DNA of 6,659 bases from a virus (Duplodnaviria > Heunggongvirae > Uroviricota > Caudoviricetes), in the IMG/VR virus record IMGVR_UViG_2537562019_000020; one strand, given 5' to 3'. Below, one piece after another: positions 1-6,659 of the stretch. Position 1 is the stretch's first letter; every line of letters starts with the position of its first letter. The notes beneath the pieces were generated by a model, which worked only from the letters and a program-made list of their open reading frames with translations, did not search any database and was not told the DNA's origin. Position numbers and translations under genes: made by a program.

Positions 1-53
1 TGTAACTCCAAATTCTGGTCAAAAGTTGACACTCTCGCATAGCCGTATTGCAT
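1..53 (-). other. Mirror copy of invertase RBS, ATG and first 17 codons (MQYGYARVSTFDQNLELQ...), truncated by the window edge; a full or partial second invertase copy to the left cannot be distinguished
   Basis: Positions 51-53 are 'cat' (ATG on minus strand), corresponding to the invertase ATG at 3458-3460; 1-53 is the exact reverse complement of 3458-3510. Confidence 0.6.
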
Positions 54-117
54 ACTTTCTAACCTGCAATTGTTGCTGAAAGCGGGAAAAAATATCGTTC
101 AGACGACACGGAGGCAA

Positions 118-143
118 TTCTCAAAAACCTCGGTTTACAGGAA
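118..143. other. Left crossover site (gix/cix-like), TTCTCAAAAACC-TC-GGTTTACAGGAA
   Basis: 26 bp with 12-2-12 architecture: two imperfect inverted half-sites (consensus TTC..AAACC) around a central dinucleotide. The inner half-site TTCCTGTAAACC and the GA/TC core match Mu gix as I recall it. Partner site lies in inverted orientation at 3368-3393. Confidence 0.8.
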
Positions 144-167
144 ACGGTAAACAGGGCCAGGAACGCC

Positions 168-1124
168 GTGCAAAAGAATGGCGATACCTTGTCCGGTGGG
201 CTTACTTTTGAAAACGACTCTATCCTTGCCTGGATTCGAAATACTGACTGGGCGAAGATTGGATTTAAAAATGATGCTGATGGTGACACTGATTCATACA
301 TGTGGTTTGAAACAGGCGACAACGGCAATGAATATTTCAAATGGAGAAGCCGCCAGAGCACCACAACAAAAGACCTGATGAATCTTAAATGGGATGCTTT
401 GTCTGTCCTTGTTAAAGCCCTTTTCAGCAGTGAAGTAAAAATATCGACAGTCAATGCACTGAGGATATTTAATTCATCTTTTGGTGCTATTTTTCGTCGT
501 TCTGAAGAATGCCTGCATATCATCCCTACACGAGAGAATGAGGGAGAAAATGGTGATATAGGGCCACTACGCCCCTTTACGCTTAATCTTAGAACTGGTC
601 GGATAAGCATGGGGCATGGTCTTGATGTTACAGGGGATATATTTGCAAACCGTTTTGCTATTAACAGCAGTAATGGTATGTGGATTCAGATGCGCGATAA
701 CAACGCTATCTTTGGGAGAAATATAGTTAAAACTGATAGCGCCCAGGCATTGCTACGTCAGGACCATGCTGACCGCAAATTTATGATTGGTGGACTGGGG
801 AATAGGGAATTTGGCATCTACATGATTAATAACTCAAGGACAGACAATGGCACCGATGGTCAGGCGTACATGGATAATAACGGGAATTGGCTTTGCGGCT
901 CGCAAATTATTCCCGGCAATTATGGTAATTTTGACTCACGCTATGTTCGTGACGTTCGCATGGGTGCTAACCAGAGTGGGATTGTCTGGGGTGGTGATGG
1001 CGGAACGGTTCCAGCCGGATACGTTCTGACAGGTGGCAACTTTGATGATTCGAGAGAATGGCCTGTCTACGCTCCTGTTCAGAAATATATTAATGGTCAT
1101 TGGTACAATGTAGGACGTGCTTAA
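168..1124 (+). CDS. Tail-fibre variable C-terminal segment (Sv-like, receptor-binding part). Frame is open from 63 with no ATG/GTG/TTG before GTG at 168, so the true N-terminus is uncertain
   Basis: 318-aa ORF ending ...NFDSRYVRDVRMG...PVQKYINGHWYNVGRA, a C-terminal motif shared with the minus-strand fibre segment and typical of Mu S / P1 S-type fibres. Immediately followed by a chaperone gene. Possible SD AGGA at 159-162 five nt before GTG 168. Confidence 0.8.
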   Translation: MQKNGDTLSGGLTFENDSILAWIRNTDWAKIGFKNDADGDTDSYMWFETGDNGNEYFKWRSRQSTTTKDLMNLKWDALSVLVKALFSSEVKISTVNALRIFNSSFGAIFRRSEECLHIIPTRENEGENGDIGPLRPFTLNLRTGRISMGHGLDVTGDIFANRFAINSSNGMWIQMRDNNAIFGRNIVKTDSAQALLRQDHADRKFMIGGLGNREFGIYMINNSRTDNGTDGQAYMDNNGNWLCGSQIIPGNYGNFDSRYVRDVRMGANQSGIVWGGDGGTVPAGYVLTGGNFDDSREWPVYAPVQKYINGHWYNVGRA

Positions 1125-1125
1125 T

Positions 1126-1659
1126 ATGCAGCATTTAAAAAATATTAAAGCAGGAAATCCCAAAACTATCGAACAGTATCAACTTACAAAAGAATTTGAT
1201 GTTGTCTGGTTATGGTCGGAAGAAGGTAAGAACTGGTATGAGGAACAGAAAAATTTCCAGCCTGACACGTTAAAAGTGGCATATAACCAGGAGGGTGTTA
1301 TTTGCTGTATTGAGAAAGATGTATCCCTGATTAATCCAGAGGGAATGAGTGTGGTTGAGTTACCCAATATTACGGCAAACCGACGCGCTGATATTTCCGG
1401 CAACTGGATGTTCAAAGATGGCGTAGTGATAAAGCGAACTTATACCGAGGAAGAGCAGAGGCAACAAGCGGAAAATGAAAAGCAAAGCCTGCTACAGCTC
1501 GTCAGGGATAAAACACAGCTATGGGACTCACAGCTACGGCTGGGCATCATTTCCGACGAGAATAAACAAAAATTAACCGAGTGGATGCTCTATGCGCAGA
1601 AAGTCGAATCTACAGACACCTCCAGCCTGCCAGTAATATTTCCCGAACAACCTGAATGA
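1126..1659 (+). CDS. Tail-fibre assembly chaperone (Mu U / P1 U / Tfa family)
   Basis: ATG at 1126 lies 1 nt after the Sv stop (TAA 1122-1124), AGGA about 10 nt upstream. N-terminus [40 protein letters not shown] is near-identical to the N-terminus of the minus-strand paralogue at 1688-2215. The ORF track begins at GTG 1117; ATG 1126 is preferred. Confidence 0.85.
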   Translation: MQHLKNIKAGNPKTIEQYQLTKEFDVVWLWSEEGKNWYEEQKNFQPDTLKVAYNQEGVICCIEKDVSLINPEGMSVVELPNITANRRADISGNWMFKDGVVIKRTYTEEEQRQQAENEKQSLLQLVRDKTQLWDSQLRLGIISDENKQKLTEWMLYAQKVESTDTSSLPVIFPEQPE

Positions 1660-1662
1660 GAC

Positions 1663-1690
1663 AAGGCCCGATAGCGGGCCTTAATTTTTA
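1663..1690. terminator. Intrinsic terminator between the convergent chaperone genes; stronger for the plus-strand operon
   Basis: Stem 1663-1670 (aaggcccg) pairs with 1675-1682 (cgggcctt), loop atag, followed by aattttt on the plus strand. Sits between the U stop (1657-1659) and the U' stop (1688-1690). Confidence 0.55.
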
Positions 1691-2215
1691 TTCAGGCTTT
1701 TGTGGCCATTCGGGCTTTGCTGTATCCACACGGTTGACCAGAACGCTGTAGCGTTCCCATGACTCCAGTCGTGTACGCTCCTCATCCGTCGCCATATTCA
1801 GCCTGACAGCGCGTTCCAGTGGCTGAATAACGCTTTCAGCTTCAGAAAGCAACGCGGCCTTTTGTGATTCGGCCTGTTGTTGTTGCTCGTCTGCCGTATA
1901 AATCCGTTTAACCACAGCTCCGTCCCTAAACATCCACTTACCGGAATCATCAGCGCGGCGGTTGGCTGTAATATCTGGAACCTCAACGACGCTATAACCT
2001 TCAGGGTTAAGCGTGGAGGCATCTTTGGTGATGGCGACAATAATATTATTTGCATCGTAAACAATCTTTATTGTGTCTGGCTGAAAGTTTTTCACTTCCT
2101 CATACCAGTTTTTTCCGTCTTCGGACCATAACCAGATAACATCAAATTCTTTTGTAAGTTGATACTGTTCGATAGTTTTGGGATTACCTGCAGTAATATT
2201 TTTTAAATGCTGCAT
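1688..2215 (-). CDS. Tail-fibre assembly chaperone, alternative copy (U'-like)
   Basis: 175 aa. N-terminal 45 aa about 90% identical to U ([40 protein letters not shown]), C-terminal half divergent. ATG at 2215 sits 3 nt after the stop of the upstream fibre ORF. Confidence 0.85.
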
Positions 2216-2218
2216 AAA

Positions 2219-3376
2219 TTATACCTGTGCGACGTTATACCATGTGCCATTGATGTATTTTTGTATTGGTCTGAATACAGCCGGATCATCGCCATCAACA
2301 GCGCCAATAATGCCAAGCCCCGTAATTGCATGACCTGATTTCTCATACATCACGCCTTTTTGCATAGTCTGAACAACACGTGTACCAAGTCGGACATCTC
2401 TCACATAACGAGAATCAAAGTTACTCCAGTTGTTGGGGTTTATCTGACCGTTAACGGAGAACAATACTGAATTATCTGTATTTCTTTGACTATAAAAATG
2501 CCAACCTGAATCATCACCAAGTTCTGCAACTACGGGGCGGGATGAATTACCCCATAAATTAAACCTTGCATTCTTTGTGGAGTTGTTGGAGCTTGATAGC
2601 GAGAGTTTTTTACCATCTCCGGCCTGAATGTTTTTTAAAGCAATAGCCACGCCATTCTGGAAACGGAATACATGCTGACTATTAGCATAAACATCAAGAA
2701 GGCCATCGCCGTTCTGTTTGAAACCAGTATCATTATCCCCCAAAACAATCGAGTTACCGCCAAGAACACTGGATGTTCCGATGCCCAGTGCACCATTCAA
2801 TTGACCGCCAGATAATGACAACGCCCCAACCTCAGCAGCAGTCGGTTTAATGTGCGAACTGTAAATTACATATACAGTTCCATCTGTCAGGCCTGTTGGT
2901 TTATTCGCTGTATAAGTTGGTGATGTATGAATCGTTACGCTGGCGTTACTGGTATAATCCCACTGAATATTAACACCTGTGGCGTAATTACCTATTTCTA
3001 CATAAATGTCATAGGTATCACCGGATGTATTCACCCATGCAAAATGAGTAAATCCAACCGAGGTCCGTCGCCATAATGCACCAGTAATACCTTTTGGATT
3101 CCCATTTCCGGCACGCAGAACCAGCTCAGAGATGCCTGCTTGATGCGAGGAGCCAACGTTATACCCTGCGCCACCAATCAGGCTTATGTAAACCACGGAA
3201 CTGGCTTGTGGCATTGTTACAGTTGCCAGTTTGAACCATCCAGCACCACCACTAAAAGACATGGTTGTTGAATTTGTTGTGCCGATATTACGCAGGAATA
3301 GTTTTTTATCGGGAATATCTGCGCCGTTCTGGTTTTTCTGTAATGCGCCAGAAGCCTTATTTACCGTTTCCTGCAA
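2219..3376 (-). CDS. Tail-fibre variable C-terminal segment, alternative copy (Sv'-like). Frame is open up to 3448; the annotated start is a TTG inside the crossover site
   Basis: 385-aa ORF, Gly/Ser/Thr/Asn-rich, ending ...NFDSRYVRDVRLG...RPIQKYINGTWYNVAQV, paralogous to the end of the plus-strand fibre segment. Arrangement Sv-U / U'-Sv' is the classic Mu G / P1 C layout. Confidence 0.8.
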   Translation of the reverse strand: MQETVNKASGALQKNQNGADIPDKKLFLRNIGTTNSTTMSFSGGAGWFKLATVTMPQASSVVYISLIGGAGYNVGSSHQAGISELVLRAGNGNPKGITGALWRRTSVGFTHFAWVNTSGDTYDIYVEIGNYATGVNIQWDYTSNASVTIHTSPTYTANKPTGLTDGTVYVIYSSHIKPTAAEVGALSLSGGQLNGALGIGTSSVLGGNSIVLGDNDTGFKQNGDGLLDVYANSQHVFRFQNGVAIALKNIQAGDGKKLSLSSSNNSTKNARFNLWGNSSRPVVAELGDDSGWHFYSQRNTDNSVLFSVNGQINPNNWSNFDSRYVRDVRLGTRVVQTMQKGVMYEKSGHAITGLGIIGAVDGDDPAVFRPIQKYINGTWYNVAQV

Positions 3377-3393
3377 ACCGAGGTTTTTGAGAA
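3368..3393. other. Right crossover site (gix/cix-like), TTCCTGCAAACC-GA-GGTTTTTGAGAA
   Basis: Inverted copy of 118-143 with one mismatch; same 12-2-12 architecture with central GA. Lies 65 bp upstream of the invertase ATG. Confidence 0.8.
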
Positions 3394-3422
3394 TTGCCTC
3401 CGTGTCGTCTGAACGATATTTT
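3394..3422 (+). promoter_or_regulatory. Candidate sigma70 promoter of the invertase gene (TTGCCT-17-TATTTT), directly abutting the right crossover site
   Basis: Hexamers read by eye, each 4/6 to consensus with 17-bp spacing, about 36 bp upstream of ATG 3458. Weak call. Because it lies in the inverted repeat, a mirror copy exists at about 89-117 reading leftwards. Confidence 0.3.
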
Positions 3423-3457
3423 TTCCCGCTTTCAGCAACAATTGCAGGTTAGAAAGT

Positions 3458-4012
3458 ATGCAATACGGCTATGCGAGAGTGTCAACTTTTGACCAGAATT
3501 TGGAGTTACAACTGGAAGCGCTCAGGAGTTCAGGATGTGACCGGATTTTTGAAGATAAAATATCTGGCGCGAAGTCAAAACGACCAGGACTGGATAAGCT
3601 GATAAAAGCGTTACGACCGGGTGATACGGTTATTGTCTGGAAGCTGGACAGAATGGGGCGTTCTCTGATTCATCTTGTTGAATTGCTTAACTATTTTTTA
3701 TCAAACAACATTGAATTTATTTCTGTTACAGAAGGAATAAAAATTAGCACATCAATTGGCCGCTTTGCCTACACAATGCTGAGTGCGGTCGCAGAGATGG
3801 AGCGGGAAAATATTATTGAAAGAACGCGTGCAGGATTAGCGGTGGCAAGGGCTAACGGTAGGATAGGGGGGCGCCGCTCAAAACTGGCACCCGAGCAATG
3901 GGAACAGGTCGGAAGGCTTATTGTGAATGGTGTTTCACGTAAACAGATAGCGATTATCTTCGATGTTGCTTTATCCACGCTTTACCGCAGGTTTCCGGCT
4001 GGGAATCATTGA
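3458..4012 (+). CDS. Serine site-specific DNA invertase (Gin/Cin/Pin/Hin, Din family)
   Basis: 184 aa. N-terminal catalytic motif YARVST.DQ with Ser9; conserved VWKLDR.GRS; GRFAY..L.AVAEMERE.IIERT; GRIGGR; C-terminal HTH ...RKQIAIIFDVALSTLYRRFP. Overall strong resemblance to Pin/Cin as recalled. Confidence 0.92.
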   Translation: MQYGYARVSTFDQNLELQLEALRSSGCDRIFEDKISGAKSKRPGLDKLIKALRPGDTVIVWKLDRMGRSLIHLVELLNYFLSNNIEFISVTEGIKISTSIGRFAYTMLSAVAEMERENIIERTRAGLAVARANGRIGGRRSKLAPEQWEQVGRLIVNGVSRKQIAIIFDVALSTLYRRFPAGNH

Positions 4013-4034
4013 CTGGAGTACAACCATAAATCAA

Positions 4035-4057
4035 TATCCCCTGCAATGCAGGGGATA
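4035..4057. terminator. Perfect palindrome TATCCCCTGCA-a-TGCAGGGGATA between convergent invertase and sopB; candidate bidirectional terminator or protein-binding site
   Basis: 10-bp stem (4035-4044 / 4048-4057) with 3-nt loop, GC-rich core; flanked by cttctt on the plus strand and a moderately U-rich tract on the minus strand. Centred in the 49-bp gap between the invertase stop (4010-4012) and the sopB stop (4062-4064). Confidence 0.4.
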
Positions 4058-4061
4058 CTTC

Positions 4062-5027
4062 TTAAGTATCAGTAGATTGTTCCTCTAGTAACAACTCAAT
4101 TCTGCTTAGTATTTCTTTAGATATTTTGCGGCTATCAATTTTTATAGTTACAAAATTACCTTTATATCTAGCAGTGATCCCTTCCCCATATTTTTTCTCG
4201 TCTTTTGTTTTTTCCTCGTCGCCAACCAGAACAGAGTCAGATAATATTTGTATAATCCGTGAAGATTCTAAATCCTCGCCGTTTTTTTTAATTGCCAGAA
4301 GATGATGAGCAGCATTGCTCATGGCAGCCATGTTTTTTTTGTAAACCTTAAACAAAGAATCTCCAGCACGAGCTGACAGTTCTCCTGGATGATTGAAGAT
4401 AGCTAATATATCTTTTGGTAGACCAGCTGTATTGATACAGCGAGTGATAATATTTCTATCTATATTTTCAGCCTCGGCTAATGCTTTAACGTTACCATCA
4501 AAGTCATTTAGCTTGCGTAAGTATCTCTTTCCTCTTTCGTATGCACTAATAGGCCTATAATCGTTACCAATTTGGGATAACCAATGCATCTGTTCATCGT
4601 CGAGATCACCAATTAAGACGCGATAGTCACATCCTGTTAATATCGCTGCTTTTCTTCTACGTGAGCCGTCAGCGACTTCAACGATTCCAGATACTTTTCT
4701 GGCGAAAGCTGGATTTTGTTGTCCAGACGTTAGAAAAGATGGGATTAAATCGGCTAGAGAGGATTCATTTAATAAATCTTGATCGCGTTCATTACCTAGC
4801 CATACCATTGTTGCCATTTCAACTTTATCTGCGGGAATTGTCTCTAACTTAAAGTTAACATTACGTCCGCATACTGGCAAAGTTATGCTGTTACCGGTTA
4901 ATGAGCTCAGTTGACGTTTTAAATCACCAACCATAGGTGATACGGGCTGATGTTCAGGGGCATGATGATTATTACTCATAATGCGATTAATATCTGGAGC
5001 ATTTTTCAGAAGAGAGCGCTGTTTCAT
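4062..5027 (-). CDS. sopB: Plasmid partition protein SopB (ParB family, type Ia centromere-binding)
   Basis: 321 aa. Motifs matching F SopB as recalled: ITLPVCGR.V.F; GNERDQ.LL; DLIPSFL.TGQQ.PAF.R.VSG; ADGSRRRKAA (ParB arginine motif); LSQ/R.GNDYRP.SAYERG; ITRCINTA.LPK; F.HPGELSAR.GD. Start ATG overlaps the sopA stop (TAATG at 5025-5029). Confidence 0.85.
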   Translation of the reverse strand: MKQRSLLKNAPDINRIMSNNHHAPEHQPVSPMVGDLKRQLSSLTGNSITLPVCGRNVNFKLETIPADKVEMATMVWLGNERDQDLLNESSLADLIPSFLTSGQQNPAFARKVSGIVEVADGSRRRKAAILTGCDYRVLIGDLDDEQMHWLSQIGNDYRPISAYERGKRYLRKLNDFDGNVKALAEAENIDRNIITRCINTAGLPKDILAIFNHPGELSARAGDSLFKVYKKNMAAMSNAAHHLLAIKKNGEDLESSRIIQILSDSVLVGDEEKTKDEKKYGEGITARYKGNFVTIKIDSRKISKEILSRIELLLEEQSTDT

Positions 5028-6193
5028 TATTCGTTCTCCCAGCGAGGTTTTATTAGATCATCAAAAATTTCTCGGCAAACAGGGTCCCATATAGAAACAG
5101 CATTTCTCCATGCATTCAATGTTGAACGTTGGTTTGCTGCTTGTTCAAATACTGTTCTCATTTTTATCTGGCCTTTACCTACTTCATCGGTAACGCGTAC
5201 AACCTGACGTAATACCATTGATCCCCATGTATTTCTTATTTGTTCTTCCATCCATCGTGATTGATTCCCTGTAGTGAGACTATATTTAGTCAGAAGTAAG
5301 CGAACGGTTGGCTCAAATCCACCTAGGTCAACGCTTTCCAATAGATCGAGAAGCATTGTGAAAAACTGCAGAACAGAAGCGTAATCAAATAATTCTGCAG
5401 GTGTAGCAACAACAATAACGTCAGCGGCACAAACAACGTTAATGGTTCCTGTACCGAGGTTCGGAGCACTATCTATAACGATAACATCGTAGTTATCCCA
5501 AACTGATTCAATAGCTGCGCGTAGCATAAGGTGTGGAGGATGAGGCAATTTACCCTGAGCATGATATTGCATGAGATCTGTTTCTATACGATGTAAAGCT
5601 AGGCAGCTAGGGATAATGTCTAGCCCAGGCCAACATGTTGGCTTTATAGCATATTCAGCGTTATCGCGTTCTCCTAAGTAAAATGGCAGTAAAGTATCCT
5701 CGGCATGGATATGTAAATCAGGAACATAACCGTGATACATAGAGGCCGTGCCTTGAGGATCGTTACCTTCAACCAAAAGAACACGATGACCTTGTAATGC
5801 TAACCATTGAGCTTGATGCACCGCAGACGATGTTTTATAAACGCCGCCTTTGTGTGACATAACGGCAAGCACAACAGGGTTTTTATCTTGTGGTCGTTGG
5901 TTTGGGTTGCCAAAAACTGCTCGCATACTGTTGATTTGATCTATGGTATAACCAGCACGACGTTCAATTCTTCCTCTCATTTCAAAGTCAGGTGCAGGTA
6001 AACGCCCGCTCTTTTCAGCATCTCTAATTGCTTGAGGAGTTACACCAATTAAATCTGCTACTTCAGTTATACCCCATCGGCGGGGGATACGCCGAGCTTC
6101 AGGACTATCATCACCGAATTGAGCGATAGCAATTGCTTTGGTCATTTCTTGACCTCTCGTAACACAATCTTGCAATAACTTTTTCAAAGACAT
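5027..6193 (-). CDS. sopA: Plasmid partition ATPase SopA (ParA family, type Ia with N-terminal regulatory extension)
   Basis: 388 aa. Deviant Walker A KGGVYKTS; long blocks near-identical to F SopA as recalled (EMTKAIAIAQF.DDSPEAR, VEGNDPQGTASMYHGYVPDLHIHAEDTLLPFYLGE, IKPTCWPGLDIIPSCLALHRIETDLM, VIVIDSAPNLG.GTINVVCAADV, WMEEQIR..WGSMVL, TDEVGKGQIKMRTVFEQA, IKPRWE). GGAG SD 7-10 nt upstream of the ATG at 6191-6193. Confidence 0.92.
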   Translation of the reverse strand: MSLKKLLQDCVTRGQEMTKAIAIAQFGDDSPEARRIPRRWGITEVADLIGVTPQAIRDAEKSGRLPAPDFEMRGRIERRAGYTIDQINSMRAVFGNPNQRPQDKNPVVLAVMSHKGGVYKTSSAVHQAQWLALQGHRVLLVEGNDPQGTASMYHGYVPDLHIHAEDTLLPFYLGERDNAEYAIKPTCWPGLDIIPSCLALHRIETDLMQYHAQGKLPHPPHLMLRAAIESVWDNYDVIVIDSAPNLGTGTINVVCAADVIVVATPAELFDYASVLQFFTMLLDLLESVDLGGFEPTVRLLLTKYSLTTGNQSRWMEEQIRNTWGSMVLRQVVRVTDEVGKGQIKMRTVFEQAANQRSTLNAWRNAVSIWDPVCREIFDDLIKPRWENE

Positions 6194-6214
6194 ACTGTCA
6201 TCTCCAGCTTGTAA

Positions 6215-6292
6215 CTTTGCTTAATAATTAAATCTTTGCTTATTTCTAGCAAATTTGCATGAAAAAGGCAAAGCAAAACGAAAAACGCAAAG
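6215..6292 (-). promoter_or_regulatory. sopAB promoter/operator: four CTTTGC hexamers in dyad arrangement around a central GCAAATTTGC palindrome
   Basis: CTTTGC at 6215-6220 and 6234-6239; GCAAAG (inverted) at 6268-6273 and 6287-6292; central palindrome at 6249-6258. Hexamer centres are symmetric at 17 and 36 bp from the dyad centre (6253/6254). Candidate minus-strand promoter TTGCTA (6252-6247) -17- AATTAT (6229-6224). The F sopAB operator is known to use four CTTTGC SopA-binding repeats. Confidence 0.6.
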
Positions 6293-6481
6293 GTGAATAT
6301 TTAAGCTAAATCATCTTTTGTTCTCCTCCCGAAATGCATGAAACGAACAACAATATAATAATAACTAATTGATATTCATCATATTTTTTGAAGAAAGGAA
6401 ATCATGTAAAACTAGGGAAACATGATAAAAATCATCAATGAGATACGTTTTCTCTATTAATTCTCCCAACCTTACCAACGC

Positions 6482-6626
6482 AAGAACACAAATAAAGAAC
6501 ACAAAAGCAAGGTAATGACAAAAGCATAGTAAAGAACACAAATAAAGAATTAAAGCCAATGTTAAATGAAAGAAGTCGCAGTCTGAGAACATTACACTAA
6601 AAGAGAACATTAATCAAGAACACAAC
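6482..6626. repeat. Cluster of short direct repeats of the AGAACA family in an AT-rich non-coding region
   Basis: Exact 18-bp direct repeat AAGAACACAAATAAAGAA at 6482-6499 and 6532-6549; further AAGAACACA copies at 6495-6503 and 6616-6624; GAGAACATTA at 6585-6594 and 6603-6612. Confidence 0.7.
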
Positions 6627-6641
6627 GGAACATAATTCCCC

Positions 6642-6659
6642 ATTATACGCGCGTATAAT
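6642..6659. other. Perfect palindrome ATTATACGCGCGTATAAT at the window edge; candidate protelomerase (TelN-type) telomere resolution site, or the edge of a hairpin telomere
   Basis: 18-bp self-complementary sequence centred at 6650/6651, truncated by the window end. The core TATACGCGCGTATA matches my recollection of the phage N15 telO core; the left flank (6623-6641) also resembles the N15 telRL left arm. Adjacent to sopA, as in N15-like plasmid-prophages. Confidence 0.55.

What the first reader, a model, noticed from the sequence alone, without database searches (positions are those of the whole stretch)
1..167. Inverted repeat extends at least 117 bp outside the crossover sites and mirrors the invertase 5' end, with stop codons blocking any constant-domain fusion
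In Mu, the crossover sites sit at the junction between a unique constant fibre domain (Sc) on one side and the invertase gene on the other. Here the left flank (1-117) is an exact mirror of the right flank (3394-3510): putative invertase promoter, RBS, ATG and the first 17 codons. In both flanks the fibre frame is open for only 18 codons outside the site (PAIVAESGKKYRSDDTEA) before a TAA (60-62 / 3449-3451) that lies inside the invertase RBS region, and there is no start codon in that stretch. As given, neither Sv nor Sv' can be fused to an upstream constant domain, and inversion would leave the local flanks unchanged. Possible explanations: (a) a second full or partial invertase copy lies to the left, making a palindromic cassette; (b) the left flank arose by gene conversion from the right and the fibre locus is defective; (c) the fibres are translated from internal starts (AGGA-N5-GTG at 159-170 for Sv) and the switch works differently from Mu; (d) an assembly artefact from a mixed-orientation population.
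Basis: seen in the sequence. Interest (0 to 1): 0.8.

Follow-up and report, generated by a model that had tools for sequence, protein, structure and literature searches.

The report
Contig-end artefact at invertible fibre switch
The mirrored left flank is almost certainly not a biological structure: it is a 117-base overhang at the end of a draft-assembly contig, taken from cells in which an ordinary phage tail-fibre inversion switch was in the other orientation.

Summary
The repeat is real in the deposited sequence. Bases 1-157 mirror 3354-3510 (1-136 exactly), and the TAA and 18 codons are as described. However, the window is a whole 6,659-bp draft contig (APXB01000010.1), so the repeat is cut off by the contig end.

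A sibling assembly's contig is identical from base 127 to 6116 apart from one SNP. To the left of that it carries a unique tail-fibre constant region (Sc) fused in frame to SvA. Window 1-1185 is 100% identical to sister-run contigs in which the invertase gene naturally adjoins SvA, which is the flipped isomer.

The flank swap maps to the centre of the 26-bp crossover site. All 14 related loci that have both sites pair one Sc flank with one invertase flank. Two sister runs differ only by a precise inversion (0 mismatches in 7,360 nt once the segment is flipped). Every k-mer of the window fits one of the two legal isomers.

The underlying feature is an ordinary Gin/Cin/Pin-type host-range switch. 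It sits on an N15-like linear plasmid prophage, and the contig's other end is that element's telomere palindrome. Interest is low.

The parts
1..117 (-). Contig-end overhang. It is the reverse complement of the invertase-side flank 3394-3510, covering the invertase upstream region, the ATG and 17.7 codons. It derives from the flipped isomer's invertase-gix-SvA junction, not from the true left flank.
   Evidence: Exact mirror. Window 1-1185 is 100% identical to natural orientation-2 contigs L034 and L033. Sibling L009 has a unique Sc here instead.
118..143 (+). Left 26-bp crossover site (gix/cix-like). The outer half-site 118-129 is the invertase-side type (TTCTCAAAAACC), the centre TC is at 130-131, and the inner half-site 132-143 (A at 137) belongs to SvA.
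   Evidence: In real loci the Sc-side outer half-site is TTATCGAATACC. The window differs from L009 only at 120, 123 and 126.
144..1124 (+). SvA, a variable C-terminal tail-fibre part. Gene callers start it at GTG 168 only because the false flank carries a stop.
   Evidence: Pfam Gp34_trimer, E=3e-11. In frame with Sc in L009 (503-aa ORF) and L028 (608 aa).
1126..1659 (+). U, the tail-fibre assembly chaperone for SvA.
   Evidence: Pfam Caudo_TAP, E=8.5e-36.
1688..2215 (-). U', the tail-fibre assembly chaperone for SvB.
   Evidence: Pfam Caudo_TAP, E=2.8e-37.
2219..3367 (-). SvB', the alternative variable C-terminal fibre part. It is silent in this orientation.
   Evidence: Fused in frame to Sc in L010 (768 aa) and L027 (664 aa).
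3368..3393 (+). Right 26-bp crossover site. The inner half-site carries G at 3374, the centre GA is at 3380-3381, and the outer half-site is the invertase-side type.
3458..4012 (+). Gin/Cin/Pin-family serine DNA invertase, 184 aa.
   Evidence: PDB Gin 3uj3, E=1.8e-62 over residues 2-181. Pfam Resolvase plus HTH_7.
4062..6193 (-). Partition genes parB (4062-5027) and sopA/parA (5027-6193) of the N15-like plasmid prophage. Context only.
   Evidence: Pfam SoPB_HTH, AAA_31 and CbiA. 97.7% identical to NZ_CP148365.1, where a protelomerase gene follows.
6642..6659 (.). Telomere-resolution palindrome ATTATACGCGCGTATAAT, which forms the contig's right end. Context only.
   Evidence: Annotated 'telR site' in phage PhiR46_1. 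Part of a 42-nt perfect palindrome between sopA and the protelomerase gene in NZ_CP148365.1. Four assemblies end at this base.

Best explanation
The real locus is a standard invertase-controlled tail-fibre switch: Sc (the constant part of a lambda-Stf-like side tail fibre) - site - [SvA U | U' SvB'] - site - invertase. It sits near the telR end of an N15-like linear plasmid prophage. The Gin-family invertase exchanges strands at the central TC/GA of the two 26-bp sites, so Sc is fused in frame to SvA or to SvB.

The sequenced culture held both isomers. The assembler built a contig from the segment plus the right (invertase) flank of isomer 1. At its left end it extended into reads from isomer 2's invertase-site-SvA junction rather than the Sc-site-SvA junction. 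It stopped about 130 nt past the crossover point, where the sequence repeats the contig's own invertase flank.

The 117-nt mirrored flank, its stop codon and the apparent lack of a constant domain are therefore products of assembly.

Shown here: the identity of both junctions, the crossover-centre breakpoint, inversion between sister samples, and the normal Sc flank in a sibling contig. Inferred: that the overhang came from a flipped sub-population in this particular DNA preparation (or from a second near-identical locus), and how the assembler stopped.
For: 1. The window is an entire 6,659-bp contig, so the repeat is cut off by a contig end.
2. Sibling contig L009 is identical to window 127-6116 apart from one SNP at 6085. 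It differs only at 120, 123 and 126 in the outer half-site. To the left it carries a unique Sc in frame (...AKSTVAAVIEYLGLQETVNRARNAVQKNGD).
3. Window 1-1185 is 100% identical to L034 and L033, where the full invertase, parB, sopA and tel follow naturally. That is isomer 2.
4. In L010 the same Sc end is fused to SvB, with differences only at 3385, 3388 and 3391.
5. Census: all 14 related loci with two sites have one Sc flank and one invertase flank. Only the window has two invertase flanks. Site position 20 (A/G) always travels with the segment.
6. L027 and L028, from sister runs, show 0 mismatches over 7,360 nt after inverting between the site centres.
7. For k=31 to 127, every window k-mer occurs in one of the two legal isomers, and none requires a new junction.
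8. Among the best-matching complete plasmid, phage and E. coli records, matches cover 1-3393 or 1121-3520, never 1-3520.
9. Published work shows Pin-type fibre segments coexisting at about 1:1 within single-colony E. coli cultures (PMC4272514).
Against: No reads, coverage data or assembler metadata for GCA_000356365.2 were available, so the mixed population in this specific sample is inferred, not observed. I could not retrieve the expected companion contig ending in Sc-site from the same assembly. The exact overhang length (117 nt outside the site) is unexplained: I could not tie it to a k-mer size or read length. The k-mer test is partly circular, because the two isomers were built from window pieces plus L009's Sc.
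Confidence: 0.9

Rival explanations
1. A real palindromic cassette, the reader's option (a). A second full or partial invertase copy (possibly with parB, sopA and tel) lies left of the segment in single molecules. One route would be a sub-genomic linear molecule tel-sopA-parB-inv'-site-segment-site-inv-parB-sopA-tel, made by invertase-mediated recombination between sites on the two arms of the head-to-head replicative dimer of an N15-type plasmid.
For: The contig as deposited is compatible with this. A collapsed palindromic arm would also end the contig inside the repeat. N15-type elements have fold-back forms, and L015 reads through the telomere palindrome into an inverted copy.
Against: No related locus (0 of 14) and none of the best-matching complete records shows invertase on both sides. 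A 99.9%-identical sibling contig has Sc on the left. Such a molecule would lack the replication gene, which lies beyond tel in relatives. From established knowledge of Gin/Hin systems, these invertases strongly disfavour deletion and intermolecular reactions.
Confidence: 0.04
2. Chimera between two loci rather than two isomers of one locus. The strain carries a second, near-identical invertible segment (for example on the P2-like prophage seen in L010) with the same invertase 5' end, and the left overhang comes from that copy. This is still an artefact.
For: The H gene of a P2-like prophage in a sibling assembly shares the last 435 nt of Sc and then matches the window through the site and the segment (549-3393) apart from the three outer-half-site bases. 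One sibling assembly has two contigs that overlap over window 2156-3034.
Against: No contig shows an invertase next to the P2-like locus. L010 could itself be a chimera through the 435-nt shared Sc end. Every copy of this exact invertase that was read lies next to parB and sopA.
Confidence: 0.04
3. The left flank was overwritten by gene conversion from the right flank, leaving a defective fibre locus, or the Sv parts are translated from internal starts (AGGA-N5-GTG at 159-170).
For: An in-frame stop at 60-62 and a GTG at 168 preceded by AGGA exist in the contig.
Against: The divergence from the normal locus begins within 4 nt of the crossover centre. That is the mark of site-specific exchange, not of gene conversion tracts. 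The junction is identical to the natural isomer-2 junction. In every real locus Sv is fused to a long Sc.
Confidence: 0.02

Closest known systems
Phage Mu G segment with Gin
   Same: A small serine invertase close to Gin (PDB 3uj3, E=1.8e-62). The invertase gene's 5' end faces the right-hand site. Two 26-bp sites lie in inverted orientation. Sc is fused through the site to alternative Sv parts, each with its own U or U' chaperone.
   Different: The carrier is an N15-like linear plasmid prophage with a lambda-type Stf fibre, not a transposable myovirus. Presence of the enhancer was not established.
Phage P1 C segment with Cin (also P7; the invertase gene annotated 'pin' in P1-like phage SJ46)
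   Same: U/U' and parts of Sv are 87% identical in DNA to the P1 C segment. The invertase DNA is 91% identical to SJ46 'pin'. P1's record annotates the crossover inside the cix sites, an Sc/Sv fusion and an enhancer inside cin.
   Different: In P1, cin points toward the segment and cixL overlaps its 3' end. Here the invertase points away from the segment. The repeat inside the segment is only about 14 nt beyond the site.
e14 P segment with PinE, and invertible fibre loci of P2-like prophages in E. coli
   Same: The same kind of switch. Both orientations are documented to coexist in clonal cultures at up to 1:1 (PMC4272514), which is the precondition for the artefact.
   Different: Those loci are chromosomal prophages. 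No mirrored-flank contig is described there.
N15-type telomere phage-plasmids (PhiR46_1, pZ1323HEC0355-3 NZ_CP148365.1)
   Same: sopA and parB followed by the tel palindrome. The window is 97.7% identical over 3353-6659 to NZ_CP148365.1, which carries a protelomerase and the same fibre-switch layout with a normal Sc flank.
   Different: PhiR46_1 has no invertase or invertible segment at this position. The window's Sv pair differs from that of NZ_CP148365.1 (86-90% identical, opposite orientation).

Membership tests
Gin/Cin/Pin/Hin DNA-invertase switch | Small (about 185-195 aa) serine recombinase with an N-terminal resolvase catalytic domain and a C-terminal HTH | tested here: met
   Pfam Resolvase E=2.9e-45 and HTH_7 E=1e-13. 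Gin structures 3uj3 and 4m6f at E=1.8e-62 and 4.5e-61, aligned over residues 2-181.
Gin/Cin/Pin/Hin DNA-invertase switch | Two 26-bp sites in inverted orientation with an identical central dinucleotide | tested here: met
   Sites at 118-143 and 3368-3393 with centre TC/GA. The same sites occur in all related loci.
Gin/Cin/Pin/Hin DNA-invertase switch | Conservative inversion with exchange at the site centre | tested here: met
   L027 equals L028 after inversion between the site centres, 0 mismatches in 7,360 nt. Flank differences stop at site position 9 and segment differences start at position 20. This is comparative evidence, not biochemical.
Gin/Cin/Pin/Hin DNA-invertase switch | Fis-dependent recombinational enhancer within the 5' part of the invertase gene | tested here: inconclusive
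   P1 annotates the enhancer at cin nt 19-90. The equivalent window stretch, 3476-3547, aligns without gaps; 86 of the 143 aligned columns (3458-3600) are invariant. Fis sites are too degenerate to call from sequence.
Gin/Cin/Pin/Hin DNA-invertase switch | A constant fibre part (Sc) outside the segment, fused in frame through the site to alternative Sv parts | tested here: met
   Not met in the window as deposited, where a stop lies at 60-62. Met in sibling contigs of the same element: L009 (Sc-SvA, 503-aa open ORF), L028 (608 aa), L027 (Sc-SvB, 664 aa) and L010 (768 aa).
Gin/Cin/Pin/Hin DNA-invertase switch | A fibre-assembly chaperone gene paired with each Sv | tested here: met
   U at 1126-1659 and U' at 1688-2215 are both Caudo_TAP.
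N15-type linear plasmid prophage | tel palindrome at the end of the prophage, next to sopBA | tested here: met
   The window ends in ATTATACGCGCGTATAAT. This is annotated telR in PhiR46_1 and is part of a 42-nt perfect palindrome in NZ_CP148365.1. Contigs from 4 assemblies end at the same base, and L015 folds back there.
N15-type linear plasmid prophage | Protelomerase gene | not testable with these tools
   It lies outside the window. It is present directly beyond tel in contigs that carry the identical invertase, parB and sopA (L014, L016, L020, L023) and in NZ_CP148365.1.
   0 of 14 related two-site loci. No listed complete record has a match spanning 1-3520. It cannot be tested on this strain's own reads.

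The most novel reading that the evidence does not exclude
The mirrored flank is real in a sub-population. The Gin-type invertase acts across the two arms of the head-to-head replicative dimer of the N15-type plasmid (or between two plasmid copies). This releases a small palindromic linear molecule, tel-sopA-parB-inv'-site-[segment]-site-inv-parB-sopA-tel, which was abundant enough to be assembled. That would be an unreported interaction between a DNA-invertase switch and hairpin-telomere replication.
Probability: 0.03. Interest if true: 0.6.

Novelty: not a real feature. Interest (0 to 1): 0.08.

Why it matters
The main value is as a caution. Invertible segments that flip within a culture can leave draft contigs whose ends carry the wrong flank. 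Gene callers then report truncated fibre genes (here a 318-aa 'SvA' starting at GTG) and apparent palindromic cassettes. Recognising this pattern avoids false claims of defective or unconventional switches. The pattern has three parts: the repeat runs exactly to the contig end, the breakpoint is at the crossover centre, and every k-mer fits one of two isomers. The biology underneath is an ordinary Gin-type host-range switch. Its carrier, an N15-like telomere plasmid prophage, is a modest point of interest.

Tried and rejected
- Complete records. I searched plasmids, phages and complete E. coli genomes for any record with invertase sequence on both sides of a segment. No record covers 80% of the query, and no listed match spans 1-3520.
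- Inverted repeats in complete relatives. In NZ_CP148365.1 the repeat is about 33 nt, essentially the site alone. In the 48-kb plasmids it is 83 nt, lying inside the segment and ending at the site. None extends outside the site.
- Promoter. A sigma-70 and terminator scan of 3300-3520 found nothing, so the 'promoter' label stays unsupported.
- Enhancer. Alignment of the invertase 5' end to P1 cin gave only moderate identity, which is inconclusive.
- Overhang length. I tried to explain the 117-nt overhang, and the 9 nt past the telomere palindrome centre, by an assembler k-mer size. No consistent k emerged and no assembler metadata were available.
- Literature. Searches for N15-type or protelomerase phages with an invertase and tail fibre found no paper holding the terms. 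That is absence from the searchable library only.
- Companion contig. I could not fetch other contigs of GCA_000356365.2 to find the expected contig ending in Sc-site, because look-ups are restricted to window proteins.

Full report
**1. The observation**

The repeat exists as described. The repeat finder reports arms 1-157 and 3354-3510 at 98% complementarity. A direct alignment shows 1-136 exact, with mismatches only at 137, 152 and 154. The 26-bp sites TTCTCAAAAACC TC GGTTTACAGGAA (118-143) and its partner (3368-3393) resemble gix/cix sites, so the repeat does extend 117 nt outside them.

The in-frame TAA at 60-62, the 18 codons PAIVAESGKKYRSDDTEA and the lack of any in-frame start before GTG 168 are all correct. 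The repeat runs exactly to base 1.

**2. Where the window comes from**

An exact-protein look-up shows the window is the whole of contig APXB01000010.1 (GCA_000356365.2), 6,659 bp. Both ends are therefore contig ends. The right end is the palindrome ATTATACGCGCGTATAAT. Phage PhiR46_1 annotates this as telR. In the closed record NZ_CP148365.1 it is part of a 42-nt perfect palindrome between sopA and a protelomerase gene. The window is thus the telR-proximal piece of an N15-like linear plasmid prophage.

Gene content, left to right:

| Feature | Coordinates | Strand |
|---|---|---|
| SvA | 168-1124 | + |
| U | 1126-1659 | + |
| U' | 1688-2215 | - |
| SvB' | 2219-3376 | - |
| Gin-family invertase | 3458-4012 | + |
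| parB | 4062-5027 | - |
| sopA | 5027-6193 | - |

**3. What the left flank should be**

- **Sibling contig L009** (APZB01000145.1) matches window 118-6116 with four mismatches. Three of these (120, 123, 126) are in the outer half-site and one is at 6085. The two contigs are therefore identical from 127 onward apart from that SNP. To the left of the site L009 carries 505 nt of unique sequence. It reads in frame through the site into SvA (...AKSTVAAVIEYLGLQETVNRARNAVQKNGD), giving a 503-aa ORF open to the contig end.
- **Origin of that Sc.** It is identical over 505 of 505 nt to the Sc of L028, whose upstream part is a lambda-Stf-like fibre.
- **Sibling contig L010.** The same Sc end is fused to SvB, with differences from the window only at 3385, 3388 and 3391.
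- **The window's own left end.** Bases 1-1185 are 100% identical to two sister-run contigs, L034 and L033. There the invertase gene continues in full and is followed by parB, sopA and tel.

The window's left end is therefore the ordinary invertase-site-SvA junction of the flipped isomer, read backwards.

**4. Inversion is shown, and the breakpoint is the crossover centre**

L027 and L028 come from two sister runs, and both are 7,360 bp. They become identical (0 mismatches) when the stretch between the two central dinucleotides is inverted.

Across all fetched loci the outer half-site stays with its flank: TTATCGAATACC with Sc, and TTCTCAAAAACC (TTCGCAAAAACC in the 48-kb plasmids and Yersinia phage) with the invertase side. 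In the window's own lineage the A/G at site position 20 travels with SvA/SvB. This places the exchange between site positions 10 and 19, consistent with the central 2-bp staggered cut of serine invertases (established knowledge of the family).

Among 14 related loci with both sites, every one has one Sc flank and one invertase flank. These include the closed records NZ_CP009073.1, NZ_CP062206.1, OR545055.1 and NZ_CP148365.1. Only the window has two invertase flanks.

No complete plasmid, phage or E. coli record covers 80% of the query. In the listed rows, matches cover 1-3393 or 1121-3520, never 1-3520.

**5. Mechanism of the artefact**

I built the two legal isomers from L009's Sc plus the window's own pieces. 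Every k-mer of the window (k=31 to 127) occurs in one isomer or the other, and none requires a novel junction. The k-mers found only in isomer 2 are those spanning the left junction. The contig is therefore a walk through a two-isomer mixture.

Coexistence of both orientations within single-colony E. coli cultures, at ratios up to 1:1, is documented for the e14 Pin segment and for P2-like prophage fibre loci (PMC4272514).

The inferred sequence of events is that the assembler extended the segment's left end with reads from the flipped sub-population. It then stopped about 130 nt beyond the crossover, where the sequence duplicates the contig's own invertase flank. I could not see the reads or the assembler settings, so this last step is inference. 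The exact overhang length is unexplained.

**6.

- **(d), mixed-orientation artefact:** supported.
- **(a), second invertase copy:** not seen in any relative. It cannot be excluded for this strain without reads, and I give it about 4%.
- **(b), gene conversion:** does not fit a breakpoint within 4 nt of the crossover centre.
- **(c), internal starts:** unnecessary, because Sc is fused in frame in real loci. The 318-aa 'SvA' gene call exists only where an invertase flank supplies a stop.

A variant artefact remains open. The overhang could come from a second, near-identical locus on a P2-like prophage. L010 shares the last 435 nt of Sc with L009 and then matches the window over 549-3393 apart from the three outer-half-site bases.

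**7. Comparison with known systems**

The switch works like, and by the tests run is a member of, the Gin/Cin/Pin class.

- Invertase: E=1.8e-62 to solved Gin structures, with Resolvase and HTH_7 domains.
- Sites: paired 26-bp sites, conservative inversion at the site centre, Sc/Sv fusion, and paired U/U' chaperones.
- Not established: the Fis enhancer inside the invertase gene. P1 annotates it at cin nt 19-90. The window's equivalent stretch aligns without gaps, with 86 of the 143 aligned columns invariant.
- Gene orientation: the invertase points away from the segment. From memory, that matches Mu gin. P1's record shows cin pointing toward the C segment.

**8. Verdict**

The mirrored flank is not a real feature of the element, so interest is low. 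What is really there is a known kind of host-range switch on an N15-type telomere plasmid prophage.

Noticed in passing
window 6630-6659 (also L027, L028 and L030 starts; L015 around 11598): The contig's right end is the N15-type telomere palindrome. Contigs from four different assemblies, including Logan k-mer assemblies, stop at exactly the same base, 9 nt past the palindrome centre. L015 instead reads through the palindrome into an inverted copy of sopA, parB and the invertase. Both fit a covalently closed hairpin end. Why 9 nt is unexplained.
   Followed up: partly
L015 (WUUG01000004.1): sites at 5057 and 8363 versus 14839 and 18148: In this fold-back contig the two arms carry the invertible segment in opposite orientations: Sc-SvA/SvB'-inv on one arm and inv-SvA/SvB-Sc on the other. 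The arms therefore derive from different isomers, or the segment flipped on one arm of a replicative dimer.
   Followed up: no
L010 7691-11667 (APYZ01000034.1, 442-kb contig): The H fibre gene of a P2-like prophage shares the last 435 nt of Sc with the N15-like element's Stf gene (7 differences just upstream). It then matches the window through the site and segment (549-3393) apart from three outer-half-site bases. Either two co-resident phages share one host-range cassette, or that contig is a chimera through the shared Sc end.
   Followed up: partly
whole window: A Gin-type invertible fibre switch on N15-like protelomerase plasmid prophages looks common. This exact invertase is indexed in 146 blocks of the collection, usually next to parB, sopA, tel and the protelomerase gene. 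Three literature searches found no paper combining these terms.
   Followed up: partly
window 3451 (equivalent to L030 position 3209): Sister-run contig L030 has a single base change that destroys the TAA in the invertase upstream region. Gene callers there shorten the invertase to 177 aa and extend the SvB ORF to 406 aa. It may affect invertase translation signals.
   Followed up: no
window 1125-1274 versus 2067-2216: A 150-nt inverted repeat at 90% identity formed by the 5' ends of U and U'. Logan contigs break about 60 nt into U or U' (window 1185 and about 2246), so this internal repeat also fragments assemblies.
   Followed up: partly
window 6483-6625: Four copies of a 22-nt AGAACACAAATAAAGAACACAA-like direct repeat lie between sopA and the telomere palindrome. 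They may be centromere or protelomerase-accessory sites.
   Followed up: no
window 6234-6273: A 24-nt-arm palindrome (CTTTGCTTATTTCTAGCAAATTTG / CAAATTTGCATGAAAAAGGCAAAG) lies just upstream of sopA. It is likely the partition-operon operator.
   Followed up: no
records NZ_CP009073.1 versus NZ_CP158444.1, NZ_CP037450.1 and NZ_CP032086.1: Different closed assemblies of E. coli ATCC 25922 carry the homologous fibre segment of its 48-kb phage-plasmid in opposite orientations. Matches cover 1121-3520 in one and 1-3393 or 1-3384 in the others. This is independent evidence that such segments flip within one strain.
   Followed up: partly
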